IMG/VR virus record: IMGVR_UViG_3300037634_003213
Reading direction: 5' to 3' (one strand)
Length of the DNA stretch: 20,000 bases
Source of the DNA: an uncultured virus (IMG/VR IMGVR_UViG_3300037634_003213)
Lineage: Duplodnaviria > Heunggongvirae > Uroviricota > Caudoviricetes
The stretch's first letter is position 1. Every line of letters begins with the position of its first letter. The notes under the pieces were generated by a model. That model was not told the origin of the DNA. It saw nothing but the letters and a program-made list of their open reading frames with translations, and did not search any database. Below, piece after piece: positions 1-17,868 of the stretch. Both the position numbers and the translations under genes were made by a program.

Positions 1-179
1 GATGTACCAGTATGCAGAAGGCTGCGAGCGCATGAAGGGCGGCCACTCGGAGGCAGTGGCCACCGCTGAGATTGTCTACACTGGATGATCTCAACCCGCC
101 TACAGGTCACTGGCAAGAAGAAATGAGCGACCCTCGGGGGTGCAATGCCCCCTCCACTTTCAACAATAACGAGGCAACC

Positions 180-539: not shown

Positions 540-552
540 AGCGAGGCAACCA

Positions 553-735
553 ATGAGAGGCATCTACATCATCGAGCAGTCCGGCGACAGGGTCACCGGG
601 CACTACCTATCCAAGAAAGGCGGGCGTTGGAGAGTCCACCTATTCAAGAACTGCTCACTCGAAAAAATAATTGAGAACGCATCACACGTCATCCATGAAC
701 CCACCATCTACACACTCACCAAACGAGGCAACTAA
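553..735 (+). CDS. Hypothetical protein, 60 aa
   Basis: GAGGCAACCAATG start; TAATG coupling to the next gene. Confidence 0.75.
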   Translation: MRGIYIIEQSGDRVTGHYLSKKGGRWRVHLFKNCSLEKIIENASHVIHEPTIYTLTKRGN

Positions 736-1560: not shown

Positions 1561-1574
1561 GAGTCTAACCGATA

Positions 1575-1638: not shown

Positions 1639-1684
1639 ACCTAATAGCAGCCAATGAAGGCTGACCAAACGAGGCAACAACACC

Positions 1685-2151: not shown

Positions 2152-2196
2152 CAACAACCAAAGTGTAGCCATGCTACATACACAACGAGGCAACCA

Positions 2197-2382
2197 ATGA
2201 CAACCTACACACAAGACAACAGGCAGTACCAAGTACACGACTGCAAGACATGCGAAGGCTCCGGGCTCGCACCGTGGCACCTCGGATGCGGCGACAGTGG
2301 TCCCGACGATTGCAGGAAGTGCGACGGCATCGGCCAGTACGCCACTGAAATAACACCAACAAAGGAGGCAACCAATGGATGA
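2197..2382 (+). CDS. Small zinc-finger protein (DnaJ-type CxxCxGxG repeats)
   Basis: CKTCEGSG and CRKCDGIG; GAGGCAACCAATG start. Confidence 0.75.
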   Translation: MTTYTQDNRQYQVHDCKTCEGSGLAPWHLGCGDSGPDDCRKCDGIGQYATEITPTKEATNG

Positions 2383-2590
2383 CTACACAGCAGCACGATT
2401 CGCTGATGCTTACGAGCGACCCTACCCCGAGGACCACCCACGGTGTGAGTACTGCGGCGAGCACTTGACTGATGACGAGCAAGACCACGAAGGACCGAAC
2501 GAACTGTGCAGCGAACACCGCACGGATGACCAACAGACAGAACAACAACAACAACAACAACCAACCCTAACGGAGGCAACCAATGGGTGA
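2375..2590 (+). CDS. Small acidic Cys/His protein with poly-Gln tail
   Basis: CEYC...CSEH; GGAGGCAACCAATG start; (CAA)n run near 2543-2560. Confidence 0.65.
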   Translation: MDDYTAARFADAYERPYPEDHPRCEYCGEHLTDDEQDHEGPNELCSEHRTDDQQTEQQQQQQPTLTEATNG

Positions 2591-3653: not shown

Positions 3654-3707
3654 CAACCCTACCTTAGAACACAACACACGCCCAGCAATGGGCACTGGAG
3701 GCAACTA

Positions 3708-4070
3708 ATGACAAACTATACACTATACATTGCAGAGATTGACAACCTACCGGAGGACGCCACAATCGACGAACTGGCGTTTCTTTACTACAAACCCCAC
3801 CAAGATACACCGGGCCCAGTTCACATGTTCCGAGTCAAGGCGACAGGCATGGAGGAAGCAACGGAGCGCTTGCGTGGTCAAGCATTCAACAAAGGCTGGT
3901 CTATTCACAACACCCTTTCAATCGTGGTTGACGGGGCAGGCATGAGATACCGCGACTGGATTGAGATGAACTTTGACGCGGCGAACAACGAGTTGTTCAA
4001 AGCCAAGGAAGAAGCAGCCAAGTGGGCGACTGCTTTGCATAAACTAAACCAAACAGGAGGCAACCAATGA
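3708..4070 (+). CDS. Hypothetical protein, 120 aa
   Basis: GGAGGCAACTAATG start. Confidence 0.8.
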   Translation: MTNYTLYIAEIDNLPEDATIDELAFLYYKPHQDTPGPVHMFRVKATGMEEATERLRGQAFNKGWSIHNTLSIVVDGAGMRYRDWIEMNFDAANNELFKAKEEAAKWATALHKLNQTGGNQ

Positions 4071-5262: not shown

Positions 5263-5275
5263 GAGAGGAAACCCC

Positions 5276-6094: not shown

Positions 6095-6106
6095 GAGAGG
6101 CAACCA

Positions 6107-6649
6107 ATGTTCAATCACAACACACAAATCAACCGAGCCGGGGCAGCAATGACCCGAGCATTCCAACAAGCAGCCGAGGCGCTCATCGAACAGCGAGACA
6201 GCAGCGACTGCTGGGACCTAAAGCAACTCGGGGTCAAGCGAAAGACCTTCAAGGGTGTGAAGCTTCATCGAGTCCTTCTATGCAAGGGCTTCAACCAACC
6301 CCGCATCGCCGTAAGCAATGGCAGTATTGCATTCGACTTGGTAGGCAGCGAGCAGCATGACGCTTGGCTCGACACCAACCACGATGTCAATGCTTGCACC
6401 GGGCCAAGCTGGGAGAAGCAAGAGGTAGGCATCAACCCTGAAGTCTTCGACCAAAGCGGCTGGCTTGTCCAGAAGCTGCACCACGAGAAGGCAGGGGTGA
6501 ATGCCGTGCTGCTCAACGCTGCACTCAAGTGGGTAGGCGACGGACCTGTCTCAATCACTCAGAAGCCAACCGAGCCACTCGGACCCATCCTTGTGCAGAA
6601 CACGGAGAAGCTTGTGTCGGTGGTAGTGATGCCAGTCCGACTCACCTAA
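6107..6649 (+). CDS. Protein with a C-terminus resembling the DNA Pol III beta-clamp (DnaN) C-terminal domain
   Basis: GAGGCAACCAATG start; ends NAVLLNAALKWVGDGPVSI...PILV.....SVVVMPVRLT, like the DnaN terminus (..YVVMPMRL). Confidence 0.6.
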   Translation: MFNHNTQINRAGAAMTRAFQQAAEALIEQRDSSDCWDLKQLGVKRKTFKGVKLHRVLLCKGFNQPRIAVSNGSIAFDLVGSEQHDAWLDTNHDVNACTGPSWEKQEVGINPEVFDQSGWLVQKLHHEKAGVNAVLLNAALKWVGDGPVSITQKPTEPLGPILVQNTEKLVSVVVMPVRLT

Positions 6650-6719
6650 ACACTAACGACCTGGACACGTCATCAAACTGTCCACCCACCAACCAACTGA
6701 CAACCTATGGAGGCAACCT

Positions 6720-7307
6720 ATGGAATCTATCCTTTACACACAACTAAACCCTGACGACTGCAACATCCAAGACGTGGAGTTTGAGCGAGGTATCAACCGC
6801 TTCATGGAGCGGTACATGACCAGCTTTCCTCTCTCGCTGCTTGAGAAGGACTACGATCGCTGGGAGCTTCAACCTCTTGGTACATGCGAGGTCGAATCTG
6901 AGTTTCCAGCAGACTCTGACGACTGTCACGAAGTGTTCTTCGTCATCGACATCTACGGCGAGCGGCATGAGTTCGCGGACGAGTGTGATGCTGAGTACTT
7001 TGCTCAGGAGCAGAACGAGGAGGAAGAGCAGAACCGACTTGGCTTCCCTTGGGCGCACAACTGCTGCTTCATGCCAGAAGACAACATCAGGGACGAGGAA
7101 CTGCGTGCCGCTGGATTCACTATCGCGCTCTATACAGACAGCGACGGTGATCAAGTGCGCCTCTGTGGGATTGATAGCTGCGGCTACTCTTTCATGGGCG
7201 CTCACTTCTCCAAGCTGTGTGCAATCGTTTACCACCGCTGGGGCAGGGCAGTGCAGACTGTCGATGGTCTCCGGCTCATCGAGTTCCCTAAGACAGGAGG
7301 TGAGTGA
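6720..7307 (+). CDS. Highly acidic hypothetical phage protein (GIDSCGYSF..AHF motif)
   Basis: GGAGGCAACCTATG start; 195 aa. Confidence 0.8.
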   Translation: MESILYTQLNPDDCNIQDVEFERGINRFMERYMTSFPLSLLEKDYDRWELQPLGTCEVESEFPADSDDCHEVFFVIDIYGERHEFADECDAEYFAQEQNEEEEQNRLGFPWAHNCCFMPEDNIRDEELRAAGFTIALYTDSDGDQVRLCGIDSCGYSFMGAHFSKLCAIVYHRWGRAVQTVDGLRLIEFPKTGGE

Positions 7308-7462
7308 TGAGACTGAATCTTTGGGGCCGCTGCAACGGCGGCGAATGGGAACACATCGACAGCGCGGAGAGCACGGACGACAAGTCCTATCTCCTCGCTG
7401 AATACCGGATGGCCTTCGGGCCGGGCTGGCAGTTCCAGTGGCGACGTAAGGGAGGTGAGTGA
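7307..7462 (+). CDS. Hypothetical protein, 51 aa (MRLNLWGRCNGGEWEHID...KGGE), not in ORF track
   Basis: Bounded by two GGAGGTGAGTGATG cassettes; hand-translated. Confidence 0.8.
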   Translation: MRLNLWGRCNGGEWEHIDSAESTDDKSYLLAEYRMAFGPGWQFQWRRKGGE

Positions 7463-7662
7463 TGGGTTTTCTCGACAGGGAGTTCAACCCCACCTACAAG
7501 ACGCGGTGGCTGCCATCCAAGAAAGTGCTGAAGCCAGGACAGAAAACCTATCGAGTGAAGGAGAGAGAGGATCACCACGAGCAGACTTGCGACCAAATGG
7601 ACAGGCTTAGTGAGCTATTACAAGAGCCACCCTCATTGAGTGATGGGGGGTTCAAACCATGA
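7462..7662 (+). CDS. Hypothetical protein
   Basis: GGAGGTGAGTGATG start. Confidence 0.7.
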   Translation: MGFLDREFNPTYKTRWLPSKKVLKPGQKTYRVKEREDHHEQTCDQMDRLSELLQEPPSLSDGGFKP

Positions 7663-8123
7663 CAAAGGTGTACCTTGTACGATTCAACGTAGGAGTGGAG
7701 ACCTATGCAAAGGTCTGTCACTGGCTGCCTGGAGGTGGATATGCCAGGACGATTGGCGACATGCTTCTGAAGTTCATGGTCGATCTCTACCAGGGAGAAA
7801 CAAAGCCCCGCTTTACCAGCCCAACCATCTTGGCAACAAGGTGGGTGGTGTGGTCATGCCAACAGCAGAACAAGAGGCATCCACTAAGGGTAGAGAACAT
7901 CGGTGTAGTCTCAAACGAACGCTATGTTTTTGCGGACTATGTGTTCGACATCAACTGCGATCAACTGGGGCCACTAACCAACCTGCCAGACATCAGATGC
8001 ACCCGCGTCAATCACAACGGAGGAGAGAACAAACCAGTAAAACTTCAACCATTTAGCATGTACCGACAACTCATGCTGGAGGAGAAAACAGAACCAATGA
8101 TCATTGAAGACAGCATGCTGTGA
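7659..8123 (+). CDS. Hypothetical protein, 154 aa
   Basis: ATGA overlap; G-rich RBS. Confidence 0.7.
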   Translation: MTKVYLVRFNVGVETYAKVCHWLPGGGYARTIGDMLLKFMVDLYQGETKPRFTSPTILATRWVVWSCQQQNKRHPLRVENIGVVSNERYVFADYVFDINCDQLGPLTNLPDIRCTRVNHNGGENKPVKLQPFSMYRQLMLEEKTEPMIIEDSML

Positions 8124-8183
8124 CATTTAGTGACAACCAAACATAAACAACGTGGTTACTATGTAGCCACGGAGGCAACAACT

Positions 8184-8729
8184 ATGGGACATTCAATCCC
8201 CGACCAAGACATGACCGATGCGCTCATCGTAGCACTCGGTAAACTTATCAACAACAAGACGTTCAAGACCGCTCGTCAAAAGCTGGAGCCTGGTTCATAC
8301 GATGTGCCAGTGTTGGTCCACGGAACCTTACAGGTTGACGTGGCAGAGGACTACAGCCGCAAGGGAACAAGCCGTATCCCTTACACCGTCGTCATTGCAT
8401 TGCTTCTCAAGCATGCTGGCTACACCAAGAAGTCCTCAGTGCGGACGCTGACAAAGGTGTTTCGTGAAGCTCACGAGATGGACAAGGACGCAGCCAAGCT
8501 TCTCATGCAGGAGTACGGACTCACTGAAGCCTTGACTACAGTGCAGAAGATTGTGGCTGACTCGCTTCCACCTATCCACGCCAAGGGTGTGGTCAAGGTT
8601 CAGAGCGAGGGCTTGGTAATCGAGCAGCGTGAGTTGACTCGCTCCGAGGCTGAAGCCCTGTTCCCTGCCGCAGCGGTGGCAGAGGATCGCAAGCTCAAGC
8701 CACGCAAAGAAGAAGAAGGAGGTGAGTGA
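8184..8729 (+). CDS. Hypothetical protein (start moved to ATG 8184)
   Basis: GGAGGCAACAACTATG start. Confidence 0.8.
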   Translation: MGHSIPDQDMTDALIVALGKLINNKTFKTARQKLEPGSYDVPVLVHGTLQVDVAEDYSRKGTSRIPYTVVIALLLKHAGYTKKSSVRTLTKVFREAHEMDKDAAKLLMQEYGLTEALTTVQKIVADSLPPIHAKGVVKVQSEGLVIEQRELTRSEAEALFPAAAVAEDRKLKPRKEEEGGE

Positions 8730-9154
8730 TGAGTGAGTCTTATGAAATACCAATCCGAATCAGTTTACTCCTTGAGGTAACAGTCGAAGCTGACAGCCTT
8801 GAGGAAGCCCAACAAAAGGCCCTAACCTTTGAGATAGATGACCAACTGGTGGGGGTAAACGATGGGGCCGATGGCCAGTGGTGCGAGTTTGACCAAACAA
8901 CGGAGGTGCGAGCGGGAAGAGTGAGCTTCGGAGCATACCTAAAGGATCAGCGGGGCAGGCTGGGGCTAACGCAAGGCGAGCTTGTGGAGCGCACAGCCGG
9001 AACGGTCTCGCAGTCGAGCTTAAGCCACTATGAAGCGGGGAGAAAAAGACCGGCTCACGCGGGGCTTGTCGCCCTCCTGGGGGCGCTCGGGGTCAACGGG
9101 ATCGATCGGGCGGTGGCTTTAACTGTTTGGGCTTCGCCCTTGGGAGGTGAGTGA
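8729..9154 (+). CDS. DpnD/PcfM-like N-terminal domain fused to an XRE-family helix-turn-helix
   Basis: VTVEADSLEEA; FGAYLKDQRGRLGLTQGELVERTAGTVSQSSLSHYEAGRKRP. Confidence 0.75.
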   Translation: MSESYEIPIRISLLLEVTVEADSLEEAQQKALTFEIDDQLVGVNDGADGQWCEFDQTTEVRAGRVSFGAYLKDQRGRLGLTQGELVERTAGTVSQSSLSHYEAGRKRPAHAGLVALLGALGVNGIDRAVALTVWASPLGGE

Positions 9155-9345
9155 TGACTGCCAAGCAAGCAATTGACCGGCTCAAGGCTGCCGGTATTGA
9201 CGTTAGAACTGCTCCCGCCACGGAGGTGGTTGAAAAACTGACCGAGCTTGCTACCGAGCTTCGGTGGTCTAACCCGGCCGAAAGGGCCAACAACATGCTG
9301 GCGCACCTTCAAGGGTTGACCGCCATCTTAGAAGGAGGTGAGTGA
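9154..9345 (+). CDS. Hypothetical protein
   Basis: Bounded by GGAGGTGAGTGATG cassettes. Confidence 0.75.
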   Translation: MTAKQAIDRLKAAGIDVRTAPATEVVEKLTELATELRWSNPAERANNMLAHLQGLTAILEGGE

Positions 9346-9545
9346 TGGAATATGAATACAAACCTGGAGAGTTCTTTAGATTCGAAAGCGAACAAGAGAA
9401 GAAAGAGTTTCAGGAGGAGGCCGACGACCGAGCCGTCCCCCTTGCTCAAGTCATTCAAGAGAACATCGACGAACAAAACCATGTCGGCGGTGCCGAGGAT
9501 GGACAATGGATGCGGGACAACGATCCCGACTGGAGGTACGGATGA
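9345..9545 (+). CDS. Hypothetical acidic protein
   Basis: GGAGGTGAGTGATG start. Confidence 0.7.
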   Translation: MEYEYKPGEFFRFESEQEKKEFQEEADDRAVPLAQVIQENIDEQNHVGGAEDGQWMRDNDPDWRYG

Positions 9546-9793
9546 GCGCCAAAGGATGTAAAGGCAGAGGCGGTAACGCTAATGGCAAGAAGAACGAGGG
9601 CCGCCGTCACGGTGGCGGTGGAAGTGGTAAAGGCAAGCGCCGTCGCGCTTCTGCCTCGCGCGTAGAGAAGGCTCACGAAACCGTTGAGCGTCGAGCGGGA
9701 AAGAAAGAAGCCACGGAGTATGACCCCGACTCCATCATGGGAATCATGGAAAACATAAAGAGTCTGGCCGACGAGATCAAAGGAGGTGAGTGA
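9542..9793 (+). CDS. Gly/Lys/Arg-rich basic small protein
   Basis: GGAGGTACGGATG start, ATGA overlap; MSAKGCKGRGGNANGKKNEGRRHGGGGSGKGKRRR. Confidence 0.7.
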   Translation: MSAKGCKGRGGNANGKKNEGRRHGGGGSGKGKRRRASASRVEKAHETVERRAGKKEATEYDPDSIMGIMENIKSLADEIKGGE

Positions 9794-10101
9794 TGAAGAG
9801 AAGCAAGTGGATTGAGACCGAGGTCGAGGAGGGGGGCAAGGTGTTCTTGCTCCCCGTTCGATGTCGTCTTGAAGTCAAGGACAATTACGTCCGAACAACA
9901 GTGCAAAGCAGGGATGCAAATACCGGCAAGTGGAATACCAAGATGCATTCAGAACCTATGCACATACCAAATACAAATACAATATCAATGGATGCATTGA
10001 ACGAAATGGCTCAGAAGTTTGCTGACAAACTCATCGAGTCTACTGAAACTTCATTGCACCCTGACTGGGAGGTGAGTGATGGGCGAGCAATTCAATCTTG
10101 A
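9793..10101 (+). CDS. Hypothetical protein
   Basis: GGAGGTGAGTGATG start. Confidence 0.7.
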   Translation: MKRSKWIETEVEEGGKVFLLPVRCRLEVKDNYVRTTVQSRDANTGKWNTKMHSEPMHIPNTNTISMDALNEMAQKFADKLIESTETSLHPDWEVSDGRAIQS

Positions 10102-10351
10102 AGAGATCAACAGCATCGGACTAAACAATCATCAGTGGATGATGGTCATCCAAGGACTGCAACGGAACCTTTTGTATTCGAGGAACTCAATCGCGAAACA
10201 CCGCGAGCTATACTCGGTTGACGCAGATCCAAAAAACACACGAGCAATAGCCGCCTACAGGGAGGACATCGAGAAGCATCAGGATATGCTGAAGTTCATT
10301 AGACAAAAGATTTTTACTAATGACGAGCGGAAAAATGTTCCCGACTTTTGA
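10079..10351 (+). CDS. Hypothetical helical protein
   Basis: GGAGGTGAGTGATG start. Confidence 0.7.
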   Translation: MGEQFNLEEINSIGLNNHQWMMVIQGLQRNLLYSRNSIAKHRELYSVDADPKNTRAIAAYREDIEKHQDMLKFIRQKIFTNDERKNVPDF

Positions 10352-10736
10352 ACGACAACCTATAGATGTTAGCGCGGTATCTGCTGCACACAAAGAGGCG
10401 ACCAAGGCGCTTAGGAAGGCAAGGGCTTCCGGCTCTACAGGACTTGAGGCCGCTGTCATTGCTCAACGAGAGAAGAACAACACCTACAAAAAACTAACGG
10501 GGACTGACCTCCCCGGTTTCAAAACGGAGGCAACTATGGAACCACTATCTAACTACGACGCTGTCGGTCTGGCCGAGGGCTTTGTCGAGGGAACTGATGA
10601 CCAACGCATCCAAGCGTGGCAGCAACTCATTGACACTGGCCTGGTCTGGCAGCTTCAGGGCGGCTTCGGGCGGACAGCAATGAGTCTGATTGAATCAGGC
10701 ATCTGCTCACCACCCAAACCAATCCCCGCACCTTAG
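10335..10736 (+). CDS. Hypothetical protein with internal in-frame start at 10536 (66-aa LIDTGLVWQLQG.FGRTA domain)
   Basis: GGAGGCAACTATG at 10526-10538; the C-terminal part resembles a recurrent stand-alone small phage protein. Confidence 0.65.
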   Translation: MFPTFERQPIDVSAVSAAHKEATKALRKARASGSTGLEAAVIAQREKNNTYKKLTGTDLPGFKTEATMEPLSNYDAVGLAEGFVEGTDDQRIQAWQQLIDTGLVWQLQGGFGRTAMSLIESGICSPPKPIPAP

Positions 10737-11308
10737 CGGTTGCGTGCCCACCCAGTACCCCTGGACTCCTGTGTTCTGGCCGTCGCATAACGCTCAAGGA
10801 TACGGACAGCCGCAGACCTGGCCTTCTTTGCACTCGACAAGTCGAGCGTCTTGAGGTCTGTAAAGTTTGCAGCCTTACCTCTCCGGCTCTTTCTGCAATC
10901 CCTATAGGCGAGAGCATCCTCGGACGATGACAGAAGAACACGAAACAAAGGGCCGTCTTGGTTGTACAGCATGTCAGACAGAGACCTTGTCTGTTCTGGG
11001 AGAGTCATCAAGTCTTCAAGAACCTCTTGGTCAACGTCATCCCAGTCAAGCACTTCATCTATGAGTGACTCAGACAATCTCCTCCAACCAGACTTGATGG
11101 GCCATGGCCGCTTAGGGACCACGGATAGATAACAGTTGATGGACGACTTCTGAGTTAGCCCACAAAACTCCCTAAGAGTTCTGGTTATCTCCGCCCTTGT
11201 GAAACCATCGAGTCGCATCTCTCGTACAATCTCTTGATGTTCACCTTTCCAAAGACGACTACGCATGAAACGATCCACAATAAGAACCGCAGAATCCAGA
11301 GCAATCAA
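10733..11308 (-). CDS. Hypothetical protein, possibly HTH-containing (start uncertain)
   Basis: 191 aa ORF fills the gap; GFTRAEITRTLREFCGLT segment is HTH-like. Confidence 0.55.
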   Translation of the reverse strand: MIALDSAVLIVDRFMRSRLWKGEHQEIVREMRLDGFTRAEITRTLREFCGLTQKSSINCYLSVVPKRPWPIKSGWRRLSESLIDEVLDWDDVDQEVLEDLMTLPEQTRSLSDMLYNQDGPLFRVLLSSSEDALAYRDCRKSRRGKAANFTDLKTLDLSSAKKARSAAVRILERYATARTQESRGTGWARNR

Positions 11309-11648
11309 TGTCGCTGATGGAAGCGAAGTACCCGCAGCACCCTGGCATTATGGTGCCGTCCAAGCATGGCTTGCCTGGCGCAAGGTGCAGCAAGAAATGG
11401 GAGACAGCATCTTGCTCAAGGACTTCTCCGCTGACTGTAGCAGTACGATGGTGCGCGTTGTCGCACTTCTGTCTGGTCTCAACAAAGGCTCGGGATCATT
11501 TAATGCCGTGCATAAGTGGTGCATTGAAATCTCAGCCTCTTGGAAAGAGCGGGGTGTGCCTTACGAGATGTGGCTGCTGGCCCGACCGGATGGAACGATT
11601 GGAGCCAAAGCAAGAAAAACTACTGACAACAAAGCTAAGACTGTATAA
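11265..11648 (+). CDS. Hypothetical protein, possible paralog of 11919..12194 (start uncertain)
   Basis: AVHKWC...LLARPDGTI vs ALHNWA...IGLWPDGDV. Confidence 0.5.
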   Translation: MKRSTIRTAESRAINVADGSEVPAAPWHYGAVQAWLAWRKVQQEMGDSILLKDFSADCSSTMVRVVALLSGLNKGSGSFNAVHKWCIEISASWKERGVPYEMWLLARPDGTIGAKARKTTDNKAKTV

Positions 11649-11683
11649 TATATGCATACACAAGGAGGAAACTAAAAAGCACC

Positions 11684-11938
11684 ATGACGAACTCTTTGCC
11701 TGTTCACCCACATGTGTTCTGGGCACCAACGACAACCTTTAAAATCACCACCAACAACTTCAAAATATGCTGGAAACGGGGGCCCAGACGGGAAGCAATG
11801 GGGGCAGACCCGATCAATAACCTTGGCGACATAACTACTAACGATAACCCTATCACCTATACAAAGACTCTTTGGAAGCGGATTGCCGCTATCAGCACGA
11901 GGAAACAAGGAAACAACCATGATAAGAACTACACCTAA
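11684..11938 (+). CDS. Hypothetical protein
   Basis: AGGAGG upstream (long spacing); TATAAT at 11644-11649. Confidence 0.35.
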   Translation: MTNSLPVHPHVFWAPTTTFKITTNNFKICWKRGPRREAMGADPINNLGDITTNDNPITYTKTLWKRIAAISTRKQGNNHDKNYT

Positions 11939-12194
11939 ACCAAAAGAAACACGCGCCCAGAAATTCTACAGGCTTTCCGAATGCAAATCAATGGCAGAGT
12001 TTGCACGCAAGACAAGCTTCCACCCAGTGACAATAAGAACATATCTCCTTCCATCCGATAGGAAAAGCTGGAGACCAACACCTATCCCTGCTTTGCATAA
12101 CTGGGCACAAGCCCTCAAGGAAGGCGGCGGACCATCAATCGCTATTGGGCTTTGGCCTGATGGGGACGTGACCTTTGAAGTCGAACAAGAATAG
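11919..12194 (+). CDS. Putative HTH DNA-binding protein
   Basis: AAGGAAACAACCATG start; SMAEFARKTSFHPVTIRTYL. Confidence 0.6.
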   Translation: MIRTTPKPKETRAQKFYRLSECKSMAEFARKTSFHPVTIRTYLLPSDRKSWRPTPIPALHNWAQALKEGGGPSIAIGLWPDGDVTFEVEQE

Positions 12195-12483
12195 GCGACC
12201 AAAGTATTGGTCAAACTGGAGAGAGGACTCAAAGCTGTCGAGCATAGTGGCTTCCTATGAGATCTTCATAGGGGATAGACTGTCTGTTGTATCGTTCACT
12301 AATACAGGCGCACCCATAATGGAGATAGTCTCGCCAAAAAGATCACTAAGAAAAAAAGCAAAAAAAGCAGGGATGATTTATGGGCGATGGCCAACAGAAA
12401 ACGGTGGAGAACGGCGCGGGTGGATACCTGGCCGACCTGATGAGCCGTTAGAAACAAACCCTTATTTAATTGAAAAGCGTTGA
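12175..12483 (+). CDS. Hypothetical basic protein (start uncertain)
   Basis: 102 aa ORF fills the gap before the convergence point. Confidence 0.5.
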   Translation: MKSNKNRRPKYWSNWREDSKLSSIVASYEIFIGDRLSVVSFTNTGAPIMEIVSPKRSLRKKAKKAGMIYGRWPTENGGERRGWIPGRPDEPLETNPYLIEKR

Positions 12484-12507
12484 TGAGTAGTAAAAGTCGG
12501 TTAGACT
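12480..12507 (+). promoter_or_regulatory. Putative sigma70 promoter for the candidate sRNA
   Basis: TTGATG (12480-12485)-16 bp-TAGACT (12502-12507). Confidence 0.4.
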
Positions 12508-12513
12508 TAAACC

Positions 12514-12585
12514 TGTCAGGTGTTGGTTGCCTCCAACCACGACGTTGCGACCCCGGTAGTGTCGGTCTCTATCGGGGTCGCTTTA
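12514..12585 (+). ncRNA. Candidate small RNA antisense to the GGAGGCAACCAA start motif
   Basis: TTGGTTGCCTCC at 12523-12534; stem GTTGG/CCAAC with loop TTGCCT; followed by a strong hairpin. Confidence 0.55.
12547..12584 (+). terminator. Intrinsic terminator-like hairpin at the convergence of + and - operons
   Basis: GCGACCCCGGTAG/CTATCGGGGTCGC 13-bp stem (one G-U, valid only on +), followed by a short TTT. Confidence 0.7.
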
Positions 12586-12592
12586 CGTCCAG

Positions 12593-12784
12593 CTAAGACT
12601 GTTGAGAATATCCATCGGCGGCCCAGCCGCCCCCTTTGAGTGAGAAGCTTGTCCGCGATACCATCTTATTGGTCCGCTTAGACTGGCACTTTGGACACAC
12701 CTGGGCTTTGTCGCGCTCCGCTTGGGACAAGAGCTTATCGAACTGAGCAGCGCAGTTGTCACAACGATATTCAAAGATGGGCAT
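12593..12784 (-). CDS. FmdB-family zinc-ribbon protein
   Basis: MPIFEYRCDNC...F...CPKC...SFSLKGGGW..DGY; starts immediately after the dnaB stop. Confidence 0.85.
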   Translation of the reverse strand: MPIFEYRCDNCAAQFDKLLSQAERDKAQVCPKCQSKRTNKMVSRTSFSLKGGGWAADGYSQQS

Positions 12785-12785
12785 T

Positions 12786-14186
12786 TTAGTACCAGGTTGG
12801 TTGACTGTCCTCATCATCAAGGTCTTTCCTTATACGCTTAACCTGTGTGAATTCAACGGGCCGCACTACCCGCCGAGTCTTGTCCTCAAACTTCTGGTTA
12901 CTCGCATTCCAATCCACATGCACAGTGCCGGTTGCTCCGTTGCGATGCTTGGATATAATAATCTCAGCGTCTGAGGGGTCAGCCCTTTCGTCGTAGTAAC
13001 TGTGCCTATAAAGGAACATCACCACGTCTGCGTCTTGTTCCAGTGAGCCAGAACCTCTTAGGTCTGACAGCATGGGCCGCTTGTTGGTGCGCTGCTCGCA
13101 GCCACGGTTGAGTTGGGCAAGGCAGAGGATAGGCACATCCAAATCTCTTGACAGCACCTTTAATGCACTGGACACCTGTGAAACACTTTGCTCCATACTC
13201 TCCGCTTTTGGCGGTCGAATAAGTTGCAGGTAGTCCACCACGATCAAACCAAGATCGGGCTGCCTTGACTTAAGGCGGCGTGCTTGTGCAGATATTTTTG
13301 CAATACTGATCCCAGCCTTATCTGAAACATACAAGGGAGAATCGTGAAGGAACTCAAGCGCTGATGTTTCAAGCCGGTCCCAATCTTTAGAGCTAAGGTC
13401 TCCCGTCTTTATGTTCCAAGCGTTTACCTTGGCAAGTGAAGAAGCCATTCGGTCAGTCAGTTGATCCGCGCTCATCTCTAAAGAAAAGAAAGCCACAGGT
13501 ACTCGTGCCTCTAAAGCAGCAACCGCAAGGTTTAAAGACATGGCTGTCTTGCCCATGGAGGGTCGAGCAGCCAACAACGTTAGGCCAGGGTGAAGGCCGC
13601 TCAATACATTGTCGAGCGCCACAAGGCCCGTAGACAAGGCAGTCACAGTTCCGCTGGCATTTAGCGCAGCAAGCCTCTCCCACCGATTCTGAGCGCTTTC
13701 GACAAGCTGCGGACCCTCATGCCAGTCGTCTCCACGTTGTCTGCCAGCAATGTCTAGTAGGTCCTTCTGGCCCTGCTCAATAAGCTCATCAATCTCTAAG
13801 CCGCCGTTGGTAGCGCAAGCCTGTAAATTTATAGAGGCTAAAACCATTCGCCTACGAATAGCCTTCTCTCTCATGTTCTTGGCATGGTAGGGAACCGAAT
13901 CAAGAACAGGACAACATTCAGGCAGGCTTGTGATGTATGCGAGGTCGTTATATTTAGACTCTGAATTTGTGGTCATGAGATGTTCGCAAACCATCAAGAC
14001 ATCAACGTGCTTCCCGCTGTGGGCTCGCGAGCGAATCAAAAGATAAAGGTTCTTGTGTTTGTTACTATAGAAATCGTCTGGCTCGATCTCACCAGCAACG
14101 TCATTCAATAGTGTGGAGTCTGATAGTAAACCTCCGAGAACAACTTTTTCGCTTTGAATGCTGTTAGGAAACTGCTTGTCGGTCAT
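12786..14186 (-). CDS. dnaB: Replicative DNA helicase
   Basis: AARPSMGKT (Walker A), FFSLEM, VDYLQL, QLNR..E.R..KRP.LSDLRGSGSLEQDAD, KHRNG.TG. Confidence 0.97.
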   Translation of the reverse strand: MTDKQFPNSIQSEKVVLGGLLSDSTLLNDVAGEIEPDDFYSNKHKNLYLLIRSRAHSGKHVDVLMVCEHLMTTNSESKYNDLAYITSLPECCPVLDSVPYHAKNMREKAIRRRMVLASINLQACATNGGLEIDELIEQGQKDLLDIAGRQRGDDWHEGPQLVESAQNRWERLAALNASGTVTALSTGLVALDNVLSGLHPGLTLLAARPSMGKTAMSLNLAVAALEARVPVAFFSLEMSADQLTDRMASSLAKVNAWNIKTGDLSSKDWDRLETSALEFLHDSPLYVSDKAGISIAKISAQARRLKSRQPDLGLIVVDYLQLIRPPKAESMEQSVSQVSSALKVLSRDLDVPILCLAQLNRGCEQRTNKRPMLSDLRGSGSLEQDADVVMFLYRHSYYDERADPSDAEIIISKHRNGATGTVHVDWNASNQKFEDKTRRVVRPVEFTQVKRIRKDLDDEDSQPTWY

Positions 14187-15151
14187 CGGTGGTTGCCTCT
14201 ACTAATGATTTTGTTTTGAGTGTTGCTCTGAAGCTCAGTCCGAACCTCTGATAGAAATTGATCGCGTACAACGTGTTGCTGTTTTCCAGGTCGGAGGGTT
14301 CCCAAAAATCTCCAGCCCCCCACTGAATCAACAGCCTCAACCATTGCTTCATGCACTCGTCGTATACTGTGAAGCGATGTTGGCCGAGAAGGATAAGCCC
14401 CAACCAAGAACAGCAGGCGCTCCCACAGAGCCTCGTACTTTGGTTCAAACGATTGCTTCTTAGGTGGAATGAATACCCATTCATTTCCATCCCATCTTTC
14501 TCTGGCCACTGTCACATTGCGATCTACCTTCTCTCTATTAAGAAGATTGGCAATGTCCATGTATCCCTGCTGTCGCCAGCTATCGACCAAGAAGTCACCG
14601 TCTGGAAACTCAAAGGCCATTCGGACAACAAGGATGAGATCCTGAGCGGTATGACCCCCAACCAAAGCGGCCCGTAACACACGCTCTCTACCCTTCGTTA
14701 GCTTGTTGTGGCGATGGGTCCTTCGGTATTGAGCTAACTCCCAGACATCAAACACAGTTCGGATCTCTACAACAAATCGTTCAGCACGTTTTGGGACGAT
14801 GACAGCAGCAGGTTGGGACGCAAAAAGAACCAGGCTTTCTGTGATTACAGGGGTTTGCGTATCCTCAACAGCGATAGTTTGGGACGGCACCGTATCTGTG
14901 TTGGGACAATTTGGTTTAAATCGATCCAGTATCGAGCGTGTTTTTCTTTCGGTAAGACCCCATCGACTCATTAGTTTTCGGCGCGACGGAACTTTTCCAG
15001 TTTCAAGTTCAAGAAAACCAATATCAATTTCTGCCAATTTAATAGGCCATGGTTTTTTTATAGCCTGCCGAACCTGCCTCCACGCATCAGCAGTGATTAA
15101 TAATCCGGTCGGTCCACTGTCTTTATTCATCTTGCCATCGGTCCTTTCCAC
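14183..15151 (-). CDS. Phage replication initiator/replisome organizer (N-terminal wHTH; start uncertain, ATG 15130 possible)
   Basis: SRRKLMSRWGLTERKTRSIL wHTH; directly upstream of dnaB; internal iteron-like repeats. Confidence 0.7.
   Translation of the reverse strand: MERTDGKMNKDSGPTGLLITADAWRQVRQAIKKPWPIKLAEIDIGFLELETGKVPSRRKLMSRWGLTERKTRSILDRFKPNCPNTDTVPSQTIAVEDTQTPVITESLVLFASQPAAVIVPKRAERFVVEIRTVFDVWELAQYRRTHRHNKLTKGRERVLRAALVGGHTAQDLILVVRMAFEFPDGDFLVDSWRQQGYMDIANLLNREKVDRNVTVARERWDGNEWVFIPPKKQSFEPKYEALWERLLFLVGAYPSRPTSLHSIRRVHEAMVEAVDSVGGWRFLGTLRPGKQQHVVRDQFLSEVRTELQSNTQNKIISRGNHR
14791..14907 (-). repeat. Four GTCCCAA iteron-like repeats inside the initiator gene
   Basis: TTGGGAC on + at 14791, 14813, 14879, 14901 (spacings 22, 66, 22). 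Confidence 0.75.
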
Positions 15152-15201
15152 TTCTACTGATTCATAGCGAAAACTGTTTGACTGTCAATGCCTGTGACAA
15201 A

Positions 15202-15720
15202 TCATGACAATTCGTTTTGCAAATTTCTAAGGCCCCACATTGCGATACACGCCGCGTCAGCAATGCCGTCGTGAGCTTTGCGTTTTCTGCCTGGTGATAA
15301 ATCCAGTTTGGGTAGCCGCTGTTTACAAAGATAAATGGCGCGGCCCTTTCCTGAGCCGGGGACATCTCGGAGCACTGACTTTTGCCAGGTCTTAGGATGC
15401 ACCACCGAACAGGGGATGGCTAATGTCCCTATTACACCAAGCCACAAGCCGTACCCCATCCCAAGCGAAAACATTGAAGTCCCGCCCTGTGACGGCATGG
15501 CCTGCTGTTTTTCTATACATACAAGACGCACTTCTTGCAGCGCATGAAGCTCAGTTAAATGATTCCCCATAGCGACTGCGTCATATTCTCGTCGGCTACC
15601 TTTCCCAATCGGAACTGTGAACCGCTCCTTGGTAAGCGCTACACTCCTTATGATTCCGTGTTCGTCCATGGCGACAACCGCGCCGTCTTTCCCTGGGTCA
15701 ATTGCTACTACTAAACTCAT
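15202..15720 (-). CDS. RuvC-like Holliday junction resolvase
   Basis: VAIDPGKDG, CIEKQ, SMFSLG..YG, V.PKTWQK, DGIADAACIA; GGAGGCAGAAAATG start. Confidence 0.88.
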   Translation of the reverse strand: MSLVVAIDPGKDGAVVAMDEHGIIRSVALTKERFTVPIGKGSRREYDAVAMGNHLTELHALQEVRLVCIEKQQAMPSQGGTSMFSLGMGYGLWLGVIGTLAIPCSVVHPKTWQKSVLRDVPGSGKGRAIYLCKQRLPKLDLSPGRKRKAHDGIADAACIAMWGLRNLQNELS

Positions 15721-15958
15721 TTTCTGCCTCCAATATCTCGGGTACAAGGTCATCAAACATAAGGGAACCAGGCTTGACGCCAAGCCGCGACGAAATTTCT
15801 TCAAGCCGTTTTTTTCTTGGAGCAACGCGGCCCGACATGTACCGCTTTAAAAGCGAGTAGTCTATGCCTGTTTCCCTGGAAAACTGCCTGAACCCGCAGC
15901 CGTAAGCTTGGATTAGGTAGTGAAGGTTCTGACCAAATATTCGATAGGGCTCGTTCAT
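15698..15958 (-). CDS. XRE/Cro-family HTH regulator
   Basis: FGQNL...FRQFSRETGIDYSLLKRYMSGRVAP....LEEIS..LGV. Confidence 0.85.
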   Translation of the reverse strand: MNEPYRIFGQNLHYLIQAYGCGFRQFSRETGIDYSLLKRYMSGRVAPRKKRLEEISSRLGVKPGSLMFDDLVPEILEAENEFSSSN

Positions 15959-16001
15959 TGTTTCTACTATATAGTATTGGGGGCAAAATGCACACCCACC
16001 C

Positions 16002-16929: not shown

Positions 16930-17868
16930 TTGACTAAACCTGAAGGCTGGCACGAGGCAAGAATGTCTGGTTTGGGGGGCTCCGACATTGCGGCAGTCCT
17001 CGGATTATCTAAATGGACCAGTCCCATTGACGTGTGGAATCAGAAGCGAGGGCTTGTTGAGCCACTTGATGAAACCAATCCAATGAGGCGAGGCCGTTTG
17101 TTAGAACCTGCTATTGCTGAATGGTATGCAGAAGAAACTGGTCTTGATGTTTTGAACGGTGAAGAGATGCCCATCGTTGGGCCAAAGCCATTTATGCTTG
17201 CAAGTCCTGATAGGTACGTCAGTGTTAACGGAGCCCGATTCGGGTTGGAGATTAAAACAGCGCGTAGCGCTGACGGCTGGGGAGACTCCCTTAGCGCTGG
17301 CGTGCCTGTCTATTATGCAACCCAGGCTGCTTGGTACATGGCTTGTACTGGTATTGACCGATGGGACTTCGCGGTTCTGTTCTTGGTCAACGATGAGTTC
17401 CGTCGTTACACGCTTTTTCGGGACAAGAAGACAGAGAAGAAGCTTGTAAAGAAATGTGGTGACTGGTGGGAGAAACACGTTTTACTTGGAGAGCCACCAC
17501 CCATCGACGGATCATCGGCTGCTGACAAATATTTACAAGACAAGTTTAGCAATCCAAGTGATGAGTACCGTTCTCCAGACATAGAGGAGGAAGCTTTGAT
17601 CTTTGATCTGGATGACATCCAAACGGAAATCAAGTCTTTGAAAGAAAAAGAATCGCTTTTAAAGAACAAAATTAAAGAACGTATAGGCAAAAACGCGGGC
17701 TTTCGTGGGGTGTTCGGAACCGTATCTTGGAAGCTTAGCAAGGGCCGGTCAAGCCTCAACTCCAAAGCTCTTAAGGAAAAACACCCAGACATAGCAAAAG
17801 CTTTTACTAGAACGTCTGAACCTGCAAGGATTTTAAGAATGAACATTCAACACAAGAGAGGCAACTAA
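16930..17868 (+). CDS. YqaJ-like (lambda-exonuclease family) recombination nuclease
   Basis: W...R..GLGGSDIAAVLGLSKW.SP..VW, GRLLEP, ASPDR, LEIKT, Y..Q..WYM. Confidence 0.93.
   Translation: MTKPEGWHEARMSGLGGSDIAAVLGLSKWTSPIDVWNQKRGLVEPLDETNPMRRGRLLEPAIAEWYAEETGLDVLNGEEMPIVGPKPFMLASPDRYVSVNGARFGLEIKTARSADGWGDSLSAGVPVYYATQAAWYMACTGIDRWDFAVLFLVNDEFRRYTLFRDKKTEKKLVKKCGDWWEKHVLLGEPPPIDGSSAADKYLQDKFSNPSDEYRSPDIEEEALIFDLDDIQTEIKSLKEKESLLKNKIKERIGKNAGFRGVFGTVSWKLSKGRSSLNSKALKEKHPDIAKAFTRTSEPARILRMNIQHKRGN

What the first reader, a model, noticed from the sequence alone, without database searches (positions are those of the whole stretch)
12480..12585. Candidate phage sRNA whose hairpin loop is antisense to the RBS motif shared by 15 or more phage genes
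Seen: the only GAGGCAAC copy without a downstream start codon lies on the minus strand of the gap between convergent operons. The + strand therefore reads TTGGTTGCCTCC (12523-12534), the exact 12-nt complement of GGAGGCAACCAA found at starts 2375, 2583 (ardC) and 4067. The preceding UG could extend pairing over the AUG via two G-U pairs. The segment folds as GTTGG-[TTGCCT]-CCAAC, exposing the complement of the invariant core AGGCAA in the loop. It is preceded by TTGATG-16-TAGACT and followed by a 13-bp hairpin whose G-U pair works only on +. Known: bacterial sRNAs often use loop seeds to occlude SD/AUG regions. Inference: one ~70-nt RNA could switch translation of a whole regulon (early anti-defence genes, dnaB, recT, possibly lysis) defined by a barcoded RBS. 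More speculatively, GUUGGUUGCCUCC resembles the 16S 3' end (GUUGGAUCACCUCC), so it could act as an anti-SD mimic or adaptor rather than a repressor.
Basis: partly seen in the sequence, partly recalled or inferred. Interest (0 to 1): 0.9.

Follow-up and report, generated by a model that had tools for sequence, protein, structure and literature searches.

The report
Phage small RNA mirroring shared RBS
An uncultured marine phage carries a conserved gene for a roughly 70-base RNA whose exposed hairpin loop is the mirror image of the ribosome-landing sequence shared by about fifteen of its early genes, so it probably turns their translation down as a group, although no expression or functional data exist yet.

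Summary
GAGGCAAC occurs 16 times in the window against 0.9 expected. Fifteen copies sit just before an ATG that opens an ORF. The sixteenth lies on the minus strand at 12526-12533, in the gap between convergent operons.

On the plus strand that gap holds a compact unit: TTGATG-16 nt-TAGACT, a 29-nt stem-loop (12515-12543) with loop UUGCCU, a 13-bp hairpin and a short U run.

The unit is present in every related contig that reaches the spot, in three tiers (DnaB identity 95-100%, 68-78%, 51-52%). TTGGTTGCCTC never changes, while the promoter spacer, discriminator and terminator sequence diverge or are replaced. All three helices keep pairing through compensatory and G-U changes that work only on the plus strand.

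The invariant 11 nt are the exact complement of the consensus RBS GAGGCAACCAA, which is also kept in the relatives' early genes.

I read it as a real, undescribed trans-acting sRNA that occludes the SD-to-AUG region of a "barcoded" early-gene set. That the sRNA gene is real: about 0.85. That it represses through the RBS: about 0.55. No RNA data were available, and no seed/RBS covariation could be seen, because both sides are invariant. The 16S-mimic idea has no support.

The parts
12480..12485 (+). -35-like hexamer TTGATG; TGA at 12481-12483 is also the stop codon of the upstream gene
   Evidence: TTGA is invariant in 14 of 14 alleles. The hexamer reads TTGACA in tier 3 and TTGACG in L012/L161. 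In L012/L161 it lies 13 nt after an unrelated gene's stop.
12486..12501 (+). 16-nt promoter spacer, fixed in length but free in sequence
   Evidence: Mean pairwise identity is 0.46 among 7 lineage representatives. Natural variants occur at 12488, 12492, 12497 and 12499.
12502..12507 (+). -10-like hexamer TAGACT
   Evidence: TAnAnT is kept in all 14 alleles (TAGACT, TAAACT, TAAAAT, TAAAGT, TACAAT, TACACT, TAGAAT) at a fixed distance from TTGA and from the conserved GUC.
12515..12585 (+). Predicted sRNA transcript, about 70 nt (start and end inferred, not mapped)
   Evidence: Conservation and the first helix begin at G12515, 7 nt after the -10 (6 nt in the relatives). The fold is two hairpins, MFE -36.1 kcal/mol.
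12515..12543 (+). Stem-loop 1: outer helix GUC/GAC, inner helix GUUGG/CCAAC, loop UUGCCU
   Evidence: Inner helix: 70 of 70 cells paired in 14 alleles, with G-C to U-A changes and 10 wobble cells. Outer helix: G-C in 10 alleles and A-U in 1.
12522..12534 (+). Seed GUUGGUUGCCUCC; the 11-nt core 12523-12533 is invariant in all tiers
   Evidence: 13 of 13 columns are invariant in tiers 1-2. TTGGTTGCCTC is invariant in 14 of 14 alleles. It is the complement of the RBS consensus GAGGCAACCAA.
12547..12581 (+). Stem-loop 2: 13-bp terminator-like hairpin
   Evidence: 5 of 13 pairs show changes on both sides, and 95% of cells are paired. Tier 3 has a hairpin of unrelated sequence at the same place.
12582..12585 (+). 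Short U run (UUUA)
   Evidence: The tail is UUUU in L006, L007, L009-L012 and L161, UUUU(U) in tier 3, and UUCUGCGUUU in L162.
12175..12483 (+). Last gene of the plus-strand operon (102 aa, no family match), whose stop overlaps the -35
   Evidence: Third-codon-position variation against L009-L011. 78-94% identity in relatives. No PHROG or Pfam hit.
12593..12784 (-). Zn_ribbon_8 (FmdB-like) gene, last gene of the convergent DnaB operon; it ends 11 nt from the hairpin base
   Evidence: PF09723, 3.9e-13. It is replaced by tRNA-Asn in L009-L011 and L162.
171..178 (+). RBS motif copy, gene 180-539
543..550 (+). RBS motif copy, gene 553-735
725..732 (+). RBS motif copy, gene 735-1127
1671..1678 (+). 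RBS motif copy, gene 1685-1993
2187..2194 (+). RBS motif copy, gene 2197-2382
2365..2372 (+). RBS motif copy, gene 2375-2590 (12 WC pairs, plus 2 G-U)
   Evidence: Cofold ddG -19.2.
2573..2580 (+). RBS motif copy, ArdC-like anti-restriction gene 2583-3608
   Evidence: phrog_7245, 2.7e-60.
3698..3705 (+). RBS motif copy, gene 3708-4070
4057..4064 (+). RBS motif copy, gene 4067-4300
6097..6104 (+). RBS motif copy, gene 6107-6649
6710..6717 (+). RBS motif copy, gene 6720-7307
8172..8179 (+). RBS motif copy, gene 8184-8729
10527..10534 (+). RBS motif copy, gene 10536-10736 (DUF7417)
14192..14199 (-). RBS motif copy, DnaB gene 12786-14186
17858..17865 (+). RBS motif copy, RecT gene 17868-18656

Best explanation
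Window 12480-12585 (plus strand) is a self-contained gene for a small regulatory RNA of about 70 nt.

Anatomy. A sigma-70-type promoter (TTGATG-16-TAGACT) starts the RNA at about G12515. The RNA folds into a 5'-terminal stem-loop presenting UUGCCU in a 6-nt loop. A short linker follows, then a Rho-independent-type terminator hairpin.

Proposed mechanism. The loop and its 5' arm (UUGGUUGCCUC) are the exact complement of GAGGCAACCAA. That is the Shine-Dalgarno-plus-spacer sequence carried just before AUG by about 15 genes in the window and about 17-20 genes in complete relatives. These genes are the early-region small ORFs, the ArdC-like anti-restriction gene, DnaB and RecT. The loop would nucleate on AGGCAA, and pairing would spread to 8-12 Watson-Crick pairs (up to 15 with G-U) covering the SD through the start codon. 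This would keep 30S subunits off these mRNAs as a group, and possibly expose them to decay. It would work as an RNA counterpart of T4 RegA. Because the RNA sits directly behind the last gene of the early operon, read-through mRNA would also carry the same anti-RBS hairpin in its 3' UTR.

Shown here: the element, its conservation, its structure, the functional strand and the complementarity.

Inferred: transcription, the exact RNA ends, repression (rather than another outcome of pairing) and its timing.
For: Distribution:
- The module is present in all related contigs that reach the site. That is 7 of 7 IMG/VR loci and 14 of 15 metagenome loci; the exception, L163, ends inside DnaB.
- In tier 3 (DnaB 51-52%) it is in 5 of 7 loci. 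The other two, L230 and L232, end before the expected place.
- It is absent from 61 of 61 loci of unrelated phages with DnaB identity of 38% or less.

Selection on sequence:
- The seed is invariant in 13 of 13 columns in tiers 1-2. By contrast, mean pairwise identity is 0.46 for the promoter spacer and 0.34 for the discriminator.
- TTGGTTGCCTC is invariant in 14 of 14 alleles, including tier 3, whose terminator sequence is unrelated.
- In 4 further DNA runs, variants within 12480-12585 fall only in the spacer, discriminator, terminator loop and last stem pair.

Promoter:
- TTGA and TAnAnT are kept at a fixed 16-17-nt spacing in 14 of 14 alleles, and conservation resumes 6-7 nt after the -10.
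- In L012/L161 the module follows a different gene, the ortholog of the window's RuvC-like gene (67% identity). There its TTGACG lies 13 nt past that gene's stop, so the module moves as a unit.

Structure and strand:
- Terminator plus inner helix: 96.4% of cells paired, 5 pairs changed on both sides, 0 of 500 shuffles reach the covariation score.
- Stem-loop 1 inner helix: 70 of 70 cells paired, with G-C to U-A in 4 alleles and 10 wobble cells.
- Outer helix: GUC/GAC becomes AUC/GAU in L161.
- The G-U cells would be A-C mismatches on the minus strand. The U run follows the hairpin on the plus strand only.
- In stem-loop 1, variation is nearly confined to the 3' arm (3 of 5 columns) and the basal pair. 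The 5' arm and loop, which face the target, never change.

Targets:
- GAGGCAAC: 16 copies against 0.91 expected.
- AGGCAAC sites at ORF starts: window 16 of 18, G004 18 of 31, G003 17 of 31, G005 11 of 22. In G007, 23 of 74 AGGCAA sites are at starts, and 19 of those 23 lie in one early region.
- There is one orphan copy per genome.
- Cofold net ddG over 34 hand-picked starts: 16 motif genes average -11.9 kcal/mol, against -5.5 for 20 seed-shuffled controls. The 7 genes with the other junction motif average -4.5, and the 11 remaining genes -4.1.
- Loop bases are 0.89-1.00 unpaired.
Against: - No transcript evidence of any kind could be obtained.
- The window's own promoter scores only 8 of 12 and its U tail has 3 U. 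The consensus scans flagged neither.
- Conservation of the -35 TTGA is confounded in most lineages, because it overlaps the TGA stop of the upstream gene.
- Only 6 nt of the seed are exposed. Full pairing needs stem-loop 1 to melt.
- Both seed and RBS core are invariant, so there is no compensatory change between them. The one variable edge does not track the base before GAGG in the RBS sites: the seed ends C in tiers 1-2 and U in tier 3, while A precedes GAGG in 11 of 26 tier-3 sites and 18 of 63 tier 1-2 sites (Fisher p = 0.22).
- Structural conservation of stem-loop 1 could equally serve a protein partner.
- The host is unknown, so the polymerase, the chaperone and the native SD preference cannot be checked.
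- The 34 gene starts used were picked by hand from ORF lists, not by a gene finder.
Confidence: 0.55

Rival explanations
1. The unit is only the 3' end of the early operon. It would be a terminator plus a protective 3' UTR stem-loop that acts, if at all, in cis on its own polycistronic mRNA (icaR-type 3'UTR/SD pairing). There would be no separate sRNA and no trans regulon.
For: - The element starts 32 nt after the stop of the last plus-strand gene, and the -35 overlaps that stop.
- In G007 and the window it lies downstream of the motif-bearing genes and on the same strand.
- The window promoter is weak.
- A precedent exists in the icaR 3' UTR UCCCCUG motif (PMC3868564, abstract).
Against: - The TAnAnT box and its spacing are conserved although the sequence around them is free. 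A pure 3' UTR would not need them.
- Tier 3 has a consensus TTGACA-16-TAGAAT.
- The first helix starts exactly 6-7 nt after the -10.
- In G005 the module follows a two-gene unit on the strand opposite to the motif genes at 464-5846. These therefore cannot be reached in cis.
- DnaB and RecT, which carry the motif, lie in other operons.
Confidence: 0.15
2. The RNA is real and pairs with the motif, but pairing does not repress. It might shield the SD region from a nuclease (compare T4 RegB cleavage at GGAG), stabilise the early mRNAs, or titrate something. Alternatively, stem-loop 1 is a binding site for a phage or host protein and the complementarity is secondary.
For: - Stem-loop 1 is conserved as a structure with compensatory changes.
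- sRNA pairing can stabilise mRNAs (RoxS on yflS; PMC5419742, abstract).
- Nothing here measures the direction of the effect.
Against: - The duplex covers the SD and reaches the AUG. In every documented case I know of, this blocks initiation (recalled general knowledge; c4 and RegA passages in PMC12197685 and PMC3014915).
- The side of stem-loop 1 that faces the target is invariant, while the other arm drifts. This points to an external pairing partner rather than a hairpin-binding protein.
Confidence: 0.12
3. A DNA-level element, such as a replication origin, a single-strand initiation hairpin or a protein operator next to the replication genes. The match to the RBS motif would then be a coincidence or the relic of an inverted duplication.
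For: - It lies beside the DnaB operon in all relatives.
- G-T pairs are also tolerated in single-stranded DNA hairpins (recalled).
Against: - A 12-nt exact match to the commonest RBS, whose invariant block coincides with the RBS consensus block, is not expected of an origin.
- The promoter hexamers, the U run and the two-hairpin sRNA layout are all explained by transcription.
- No iterons or other repeats were noted by eye in the intergenic alignment. No repeat search was run.
Confidence: 0.06
4. A minus-strand feature: a fossil or decoy RBS at the end of the DnaB operon, or the RBS of an unannotated minus-strand micro-peptide.
For: The motif reads as an RBS on the minus strand, directly downstream of the last minus-strand gene.
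Against: - No start codon follows it. The only candidates are CTG-started frames of 17 aa in the window and 5 aa in L009-L011, and a 4-aa ATG frame in L161. None is conserved (read by eye).
- A decaying relic would not stay invariant over lineages with 51% DnaB identity while its flanks are replaced.
- 15 wobble cells in the helices, and 10 in the 14-allele alignment of stem-loop 1's inner helix, would be mismatches on this strand.
Confidence: 0.03

Closest known systems
c4 antisense RNA of phages P1 and P7 (immI)
   Same: It is a phage-encoded small RNA that acts on a phage mRNA transcribed elsewhere. Its complementary stretches are thought to sit in loops, and they bind around the ribosome binding site and block translation (review PMC12197685, passages read).
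   Different: c4 controls one operon (ant) in lysogenic immunity and heteroimmunity. Here about 15-20 dispersed genes share the target, and no tyrosine integrase was found in 4 of 4 near-complete relatives. No Rfam family, c4 included, matched at E up to 1. The detail that c4 is processed from its own operon's transcript is recalled, not checked.
C-rich, loop-exposed anti-SD sRNAs of Bacillota (RoxS/RsaE, RNAIII hairpins)
   Same: A C-rich motif presented by a hairpin pairs with G-rich SD regions of many mRNAs. For RoxS 'C-rich regions' I saw only the abstract and section headings of PMC5419742. The rest is recalled.
   Different: Those are host RNAs whose seed matches the generic SD. Here the seed extends 6-7 nt beyond the SD into a phage-specific spacer (CAACCAA). 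It therefore separates motif genes from the phage's other SD-bearing genes (ddG -11.9 against -4.5 and -4.1). There is no sequence homology.
T4 RegA translational repressor (and RegB nuclease)
   Same: A phage-encoded factor that competes with the ribosome at the initiation regions of about 30 mRNAs, to shut down an earlier gene class. RegB inactivates early mRNAs (PMC3014915, passages read). That RegB cuts in the SD at GGAG is recalled.
   Different: These are proteins with loosely defined A/U-rich operators. Here the specificity would lie in an RNA and an exact shared sequence.
icaR 3' UTR / SD interaction of Staphylococcus aureus
   Same: A UCCCC-type motif in the 3' UTR pairs with the SD of the message, blocks initiation and creates an RNase III substrate (PMC3868564, abstract). 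The present hairpin also lies in the 3' UTR of the operon that holds most targets.
   Different: That case is one gene pairing with its own mRNA and has no separate promoter. Here there are many targets, some in other operons, plus conserved promoter elements.

Membership tests
Trans-acting base-pairing sRNA (generic definition) | Own promoter | tested here: met
   TTGA and TAnAnT sit at a fixed 16-17-nt spacing in 14 of 14 alleles with a free spacer sequence. This is by conservation only. The window allele scores 8 of 12 and was not listed.
Trans-acting base-pairing sRNA (generic definition) | Rho-independent terminator (GC-rich hairpin plus U run) | tested here: inconclusive
   The hairpin has covariation. 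The U run is only 3 U in the window and 4-5 U in most relatives. The scan did not list it.
Trans-acting base-pairing sRNA (generic definition) | Conserved, accessible seed complementary to several mRNAs encoded elsewhere | tested here: met
   The 11-nt core is invariant. The loop is 0.89-1.00 unpaired. There are 8-12 WC pairs to 16 gene starts in the window.
Trans-acting base-pairing sRNA (generic definition) | No conserved reading frame | tested here: met
   Indels of 1, 2 and 10 nt among alleles, and replacement of the terminator sequence. No conserved minus-strand frame.
Trans-acting base-pairing sRNA (generic definition) | Detected transcript of defined size | not testable with these tools
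   The tools gave no RNA data for this stretch (see Tried and rejected).
Trans-acting base-pairing sRNA (generic definition) | Regulation of targets shown, with compensatory mutations | not testable with these tools
   This needs reporters. The natural covariation test at the seed edge was not significant (p = 0.22).
Any curated RNA family (Rfam 15), including phage c4 antisense RNA | Match to a covariance model | tested here: not met
   No hit on the element at E up to 1 in the window, nor in L227, L012 and L009 (only tRNA and chance hits elsewhere).
icaR-type 3'UTR-to-SD pairing in cis | Anti-SD motif lies in the 3' UTR of the mRNA that carries the target SD | tested here: inconclusive
   This is true of the window and G007 layouts. 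It is not true in G005, where the module is on the other strand from the motif genes. DnaB and RecT targets lie in other operons.
16S rRNA 3'-end mimic | Extended identity to the host anti-SD tail beyond CCUCC | not testable with these tools
   The host is unknown: no isolate relative has DnaB identity above 40%, and none of the 55 pattern hits in genome contigs carries the module. Only CCUCC is shared with the generic tail, and tier 3 reads CCUCU.

The most novel reading that the evidence does not exclude
A clade of apparently virulent marine phages gives a whole class of genes a private ribosome-binding barcode (GAGGCAACCAA-UG). The class comprises the early small ORFs, anti-restriction, DnaB and RecT genes. 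The phages encode a single 70-nt RNA whose loop reads that barcode. One RNA would thus gate the translation of about 20 genes at once, as an RNA-only equivalent of T4 RegA/RegB that times early-gene shut-off. It might also hit co-infecting relatives that share the barcode. Unchecked notes of this scan list similar anti-RBS hairpins in unrelated uncultured phages. If those hold up, this would be a widespread and so far undescribed way for phages to programme their gene expression.
Probability: 0.4. Interest if true: 0.85.

Novelty: new variant of a known kind. Interest (0 to 1): 0.72.

Why it matters
Temporal control in phages is usually explained by promoters, sigma factors, anti-terminators and a few RNA-binding proteins. 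A single small RNA matched to a sequence tag built into the ribosome binding sites of about twenty genes would be a different and very economical logic. The regulon would be defined by the RBS itself, it would be portable as a 110-bp module, and it could be read straight from sequence.

The idea is directly testable with reporters and compensatory mutations. It would also give a rule for finding such regulons in uncultured phage genomes: look for an enriched extended RBS plus one orphan inverted copy in a hairpin loop between a promoter and a terminator. And it offers a natural orthogonal RBS/anti-RBS pair for synthetic biology.

My literature searches found no description of such a multi-target anti-RBS sRNA acting on a phage's own genes. 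The nearest cases are c4 (one operon) and host C-rich sRNAs.

Tried and rejected
- **RNA evidence.** No RNA holder was listed for window 9000-16000; all 24 runs are on record as DNA. The four runs I laid are DNA contigs and say nothing on expression.
- **Whole genome.** None is held for the window. G001 is an identical 16.4-kb fragment.
- **Phage collection.** blastn gave only a chance-level DnaB match. tblastn with DnaB found no isolate above 40% identity. The host stays unknown.
- **Exact-pattern scans.** The 17-mer gave 5 hits, of which 2 are chance. The 20-nt degenerate pattern in genome contigs gave 55 hits, and 0 carry the module.
- **Search with the 102-aa upstream protein.** It found the same 7 contigs only.
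- **Sliding duplexfold of the seed region over the window.** This was far too permissive, with hundreds of sites at -14 kcal/mol or below. I dropped it in favour of contiguous-pair counts and cofold ddG.
- **Seed-edge covariation with the base before GAGG.** Not significant.
- **Minus-strand peptide.** Rejected; no start and no conserved frame.
- **A second sRNA against the other junction motif GGAGGTGAGTGATG.** No inverted orphan copy in the window, G003, G004 or G005.
- **N4-like idea, prompted by giant ORFs.** No PHROG hit, and only one sub-threshold Pfam hit. No PF00940 RNA polymerase was found in 4 genomes, but the control of that search was uninformative. Dropped.
- **Immunity-RNA reading (as for c4 or P4).** Made less likely by the absence of PF00589 in 4 of 4 near-complete relatives. 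Serine recombinases were not searched.
- **16S-mimic idea.** Not testable without a host.
- **Earlier notes of this scan.** Look-ups by place and by sequence found nothing.
- **Literature search for the motif string.** It returned only unrelated primer matches.
Full report
**Observation**

The 8-mer GAGGCAAC occurs 16 times in the 20-kb window against 0.91 expected; 0 of 200 shuffles reach 16. Fifteen copies are followed within 10 nt by an ATG that opens an ORF of 60-466 aa. The copy at 12526-12533 on the minus strand is followed by none.

The plus strand there reads TTGGTTGCCTCC (12523-12534). This is the complement of GGAGGCAACCAA in front of the genes at 2375, 2583 and 4067. T12521 and G12522 can add two G-U pairs over the U and G of AUG.

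Two cautions apply. The tool's consensus scans listed neither the promoter (8 of 12 matches) nor the hairpin as a terminator. Folding energy is equally unusual on both strands (z -3.79 and -4.18).

**Context**

The window is part of an uncultured marine phage. There is no isolate relative above 40% DnaB identity, and all run holders are marine metagenomes.

- A long plus-strand block of mostly small ORFs runs to 12483. It includes an ArdC-like anti-restriction gene (phrog_7245, 2.7e-60).
- Its last gene (12175-12483, 102 aa, no family) is real. Against L009-L011 it varies at third codon positions and is 78-94% identical in relatives.
- Converging on it is a minus-strand operon: a RuvC-like resolvase, a 322-aa ORF, DnaB (12786-14186) and a Zn_ribbon_8 gene (12593-12784).
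- RecE/YqaJ and RecT follow on the plus strand.

**Relatives**

DnaB searches gave three tiers.

- Tier 1: 95-100% identity.
- Tier 2: 68-78% identity (L009-L011, L155-L162, L012, L160, L161).
- Tier 3: 51-52% identity (L227-L233).

The element is present in:

- 7 of 7 IMG/VR loci of tiers 1-2;
- 14 of 15 metagenome loci; L163 stops inside DnaB;
- 5 of 7 tier-3 loci; L230 and L232 end before the expected place.

It is absent from 61 of 61 loci of unrelated phages with DnaB identity of 38% or less. Exact-pattern scans elsewhere gave only chance matches without the module.

For the alignments I dropped rows identical to one kept.

- A3 (11 rows): dropped L150, L153, L154, L156-L160 and L164.
- A5 (14 rows): dropped L008 and L228.
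- A6 (11 rows): dropped L006, L007, L008 and L155.

**What is conserved**

Among seven lineage representatives of tiers 1-2:

| Segment | Mean pairwise identity |
|---|---|
| 13-nt seed | 1.00 (13 of 13 columns invariant) |
| -35 | 0.80 |
| -10 | 0.65 |
| Promoter spacer | 0.46 |
| Discriminator | 0.34 |

With tier 3 added, TTGGTTGCCTC is invariant in 14 of 14 alleles, as are TTGA and the T, A, A, T positions of the -10 box.

The hexamers read:

- TTGATG/TAGACT in the window;
- TTGAAC or TTGATA/TAAAAT in L010 and L011;
- TTGACG/TAAAGT or TACAAT in L012 and L161;
- TTGACA/TACACT or TAGAAT in tier 3.

They are always 16-17 nt apart, and conservation resumes 6-7 nt after the -10.

The TTGA is partly explained by the stop codon TGA of the upstream gene, which it overlaps in most lineages. 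In L012/L161, however, the module follows a different gene, the ortholog (67% identity) of the window's RuvC-like gene. There TTGACG lies 13 nt beyond that gene's TAG. The promoter, hairpin and terminator therefore travel together as a module.

In four further DNA runs, variants inside 12480-12585 fall only at 12488, 12492, 12497 and 12499 (spacer), 12509 (discriminator), 12568 (terminator loop) and 12581 (last stem pair, G-C to G-U).

**Structure and strand**

All alleles fold into the same two-hairpin shape.

- **Stem-loop 1** begins at the first conserved base. GUC pairs with a conserved GAC (AUC with GAU in L161). The inner helix GUUGG/CCAAC is kept as GUUGG/CCAGU in L012/L161 and as UUUGG/CUAGA or CUAAA in tier 3. 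That gives 70 of 70 cells paired, G-C to U-A in 4 alleles and 10 wobble cells; 1 of 500 shuffles reaches the score.
- **The terminator helix** has 5 of 13 pairs changed on both sides; 0 of 500 shuffles reach the covariation score, and slid controls pair in 32-50% of cells. In tier 3 it is replaced by a hairpin of unrelated sequence.

The wobble pairs would be A-C mismatches on the minus strand, and the U run follows the hairpin only on the plus strand. The functional strand is therefore the plus strand.

Within stem-loop 1, change is almost confined to the 3' arm (3 of 5 columns) and the basal pair. The 5' arm and loop never change. That asymmetry is what an external pairing partner would impose.

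**Relation to the RBS motif**

The invariant 11 nt are the exact complement of GAGGCAACCAA, the consensus in front of AUG in the motif genes. Both edges of the invariant block coincide with the edges of that consensus.

| Genome | Sites at starts of ORFs of 40 aa or more |
|---|---|
| Window | 16 of 18 AGGCAAC sites |
| G004 | 18 of 31 AGGCAAC sites |
| G003 | 17 of 31 AGGCAAC sites |
| G005 | 11 of 22 AGGCAAC sites |
| G007 (tier 3) | 23 of 74 AGGCAA sites; 19 of the 23 in one region, 67.5-73.0 plus 0.5-7.8 kb |

- Each genome has one orphan inverted copy.
- Contiguous pairing to the window's 16 starts is 8-12 Watson-Crick pairs, or 8-15 with G-U.
- Net cofold energies over 34 hand-picked starts average -11.9 kcal/mol for the 16 motif genes, against -5.5 for 20 seed-shuffled controls. 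They average -4.5 for the seven genes with the other junction motif GGAGGTGAGTGATG and -4.1 for 11 others.
- The six loop bases are 0.89-1.00 unpaired.

**What this does not show**

- No RNA data could be had.
- Because seed core and RBS core are both invariant, there is no compensatory change between them. The only variable edge (C in tiers 1-2, U in tier 3) does not track the base before GAGG (p = 0.22).
- Most of the seed is inside a stem.
- The window's own promoter and U tail are weak.

**Explanation and rivals**

I take the unit to be a trans-acting sRNA of about 70 nt. It nucleates with its loop on AGGCAA and zips over the SD-to-AUG region of the motif genes, blocking initiation.

The rivals are these.

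- **A purely cis 3' UTR/terminator element.** Against it: the conserved -10 box and spacing, the layout of G005 and the targets in other operons.
- **Pairing with a non-repressive outcome, or a protein-binding hairpin.**
- **A DNA-level element.**
- **A minus-strand fossil RBS or micro-peptide.** Against it: no start codon, no conserved frame, invariance, and wobble pairs.

Four of four near-complete relatives lack a tyrosine integrase, which speaks against an immunity-RNA role of the c4 or P4 kind.

**Comparison with what is known**

- **c4 RNA of P1/P7.** It pairs around the RBS of ant (PMC12197685, passages) but controls one operon. It is not related by any Rfam model.
- **Host sRNAs with C-rich loops (RoxS/RsaE).** They hit generic SD sequences (PMC5419742, abstract and headings; the rest recalled).
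- **T4 RegA.** It occludes about 30 initiation regions but is a protein (PMC3014915, passages).
- **icaR.** It pairs its 3' UTR with its own SD (PMC3868564, abstract).

The present case combines these: an RNA, many targets, and specificity that reaches past the SD into a phage-private spacer. Three literature searches found no such case in print.

Earlier notes of this scan describe similar anti-RBS hairpins in other uncultured phages. They are unchecked leads, not support.

**Verdict**

- The sRNA gene is very probably real.
- Its proposed role is well motivated but untested.
- It is a new variant of a known kind.

Noticed in passing
window 7296-10081 (+): A second shared junction, GGAGGTGAGTGATG, joins seven consecutive small genes (7296, 7451, 8718, 9143, 9334, 9782, 10068). 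The TGA stop of one gene overlaps the ATG of the next. It recurs in G004 (4 copies) and G003 (1 copy), and no inverted orphan copy exists.
   Followed up: partly
L009:5393-5468, L010:5393-5468, L011:5393-5468, L162:4393-4466 (+); L227:5303-5377 (-): A tRNA-Asn(GTT) gene abuts the sRNA terminator in relatives. It lies on the DnaB strand in four loci, and on the sRNA strand just downstream in L227. The window lineage has a Zn_ribbon_8 gene (12593-12784) at that place instead.
   Followed up: partly
L135:6753-19877 (-) (= G005 26753-39877); G008 from 31495 (+): Giant ORFs of 4374 aa and at least 3118 aa. There is no PHROG match, and the only Pfam line is sub-threshold (18.6 bits against a cut-off of 27.4).
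   Followed up: partly
window 12175-12483 (+): A conserved 102-aa protein (KYWxNWRED...NPYL near the C-terminus) with no Pfam or PHROG family. Its stop codon is embedded in the sRNA's -35 box in tiers 1-3. In G005 its homolog lies elsewhere, upstream of the DnaB operon.
   Followed up: partly
window 17846-17870 (+); G003 26347, G004 31113, G005 16213: The RecT start context tcaacacaagagAGGCAACtaatg is identical in four genomes with 69-100% DnaB identity. The likely reason is that it overlaps the end of the RecE/YqaJ-like gene.
   Followed up: no
window 12784-12788 (-): The Zn-ribbon gene starts at ATG 12784 (MPIFEYRC...), 2 nt after the TAA stop of DnaB (TAAAATG). The 75-aa TTG-started ORF in the ORF list is therefore too long.
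   Followed up: yes
G005 (L134-L137) 11421-14325: In this relative the RuvC-like gene plus the sRNA module are inverted with respect to DnaB and the early genes. The module is therefore not fixed to one neighbour.
   Followed up: partly
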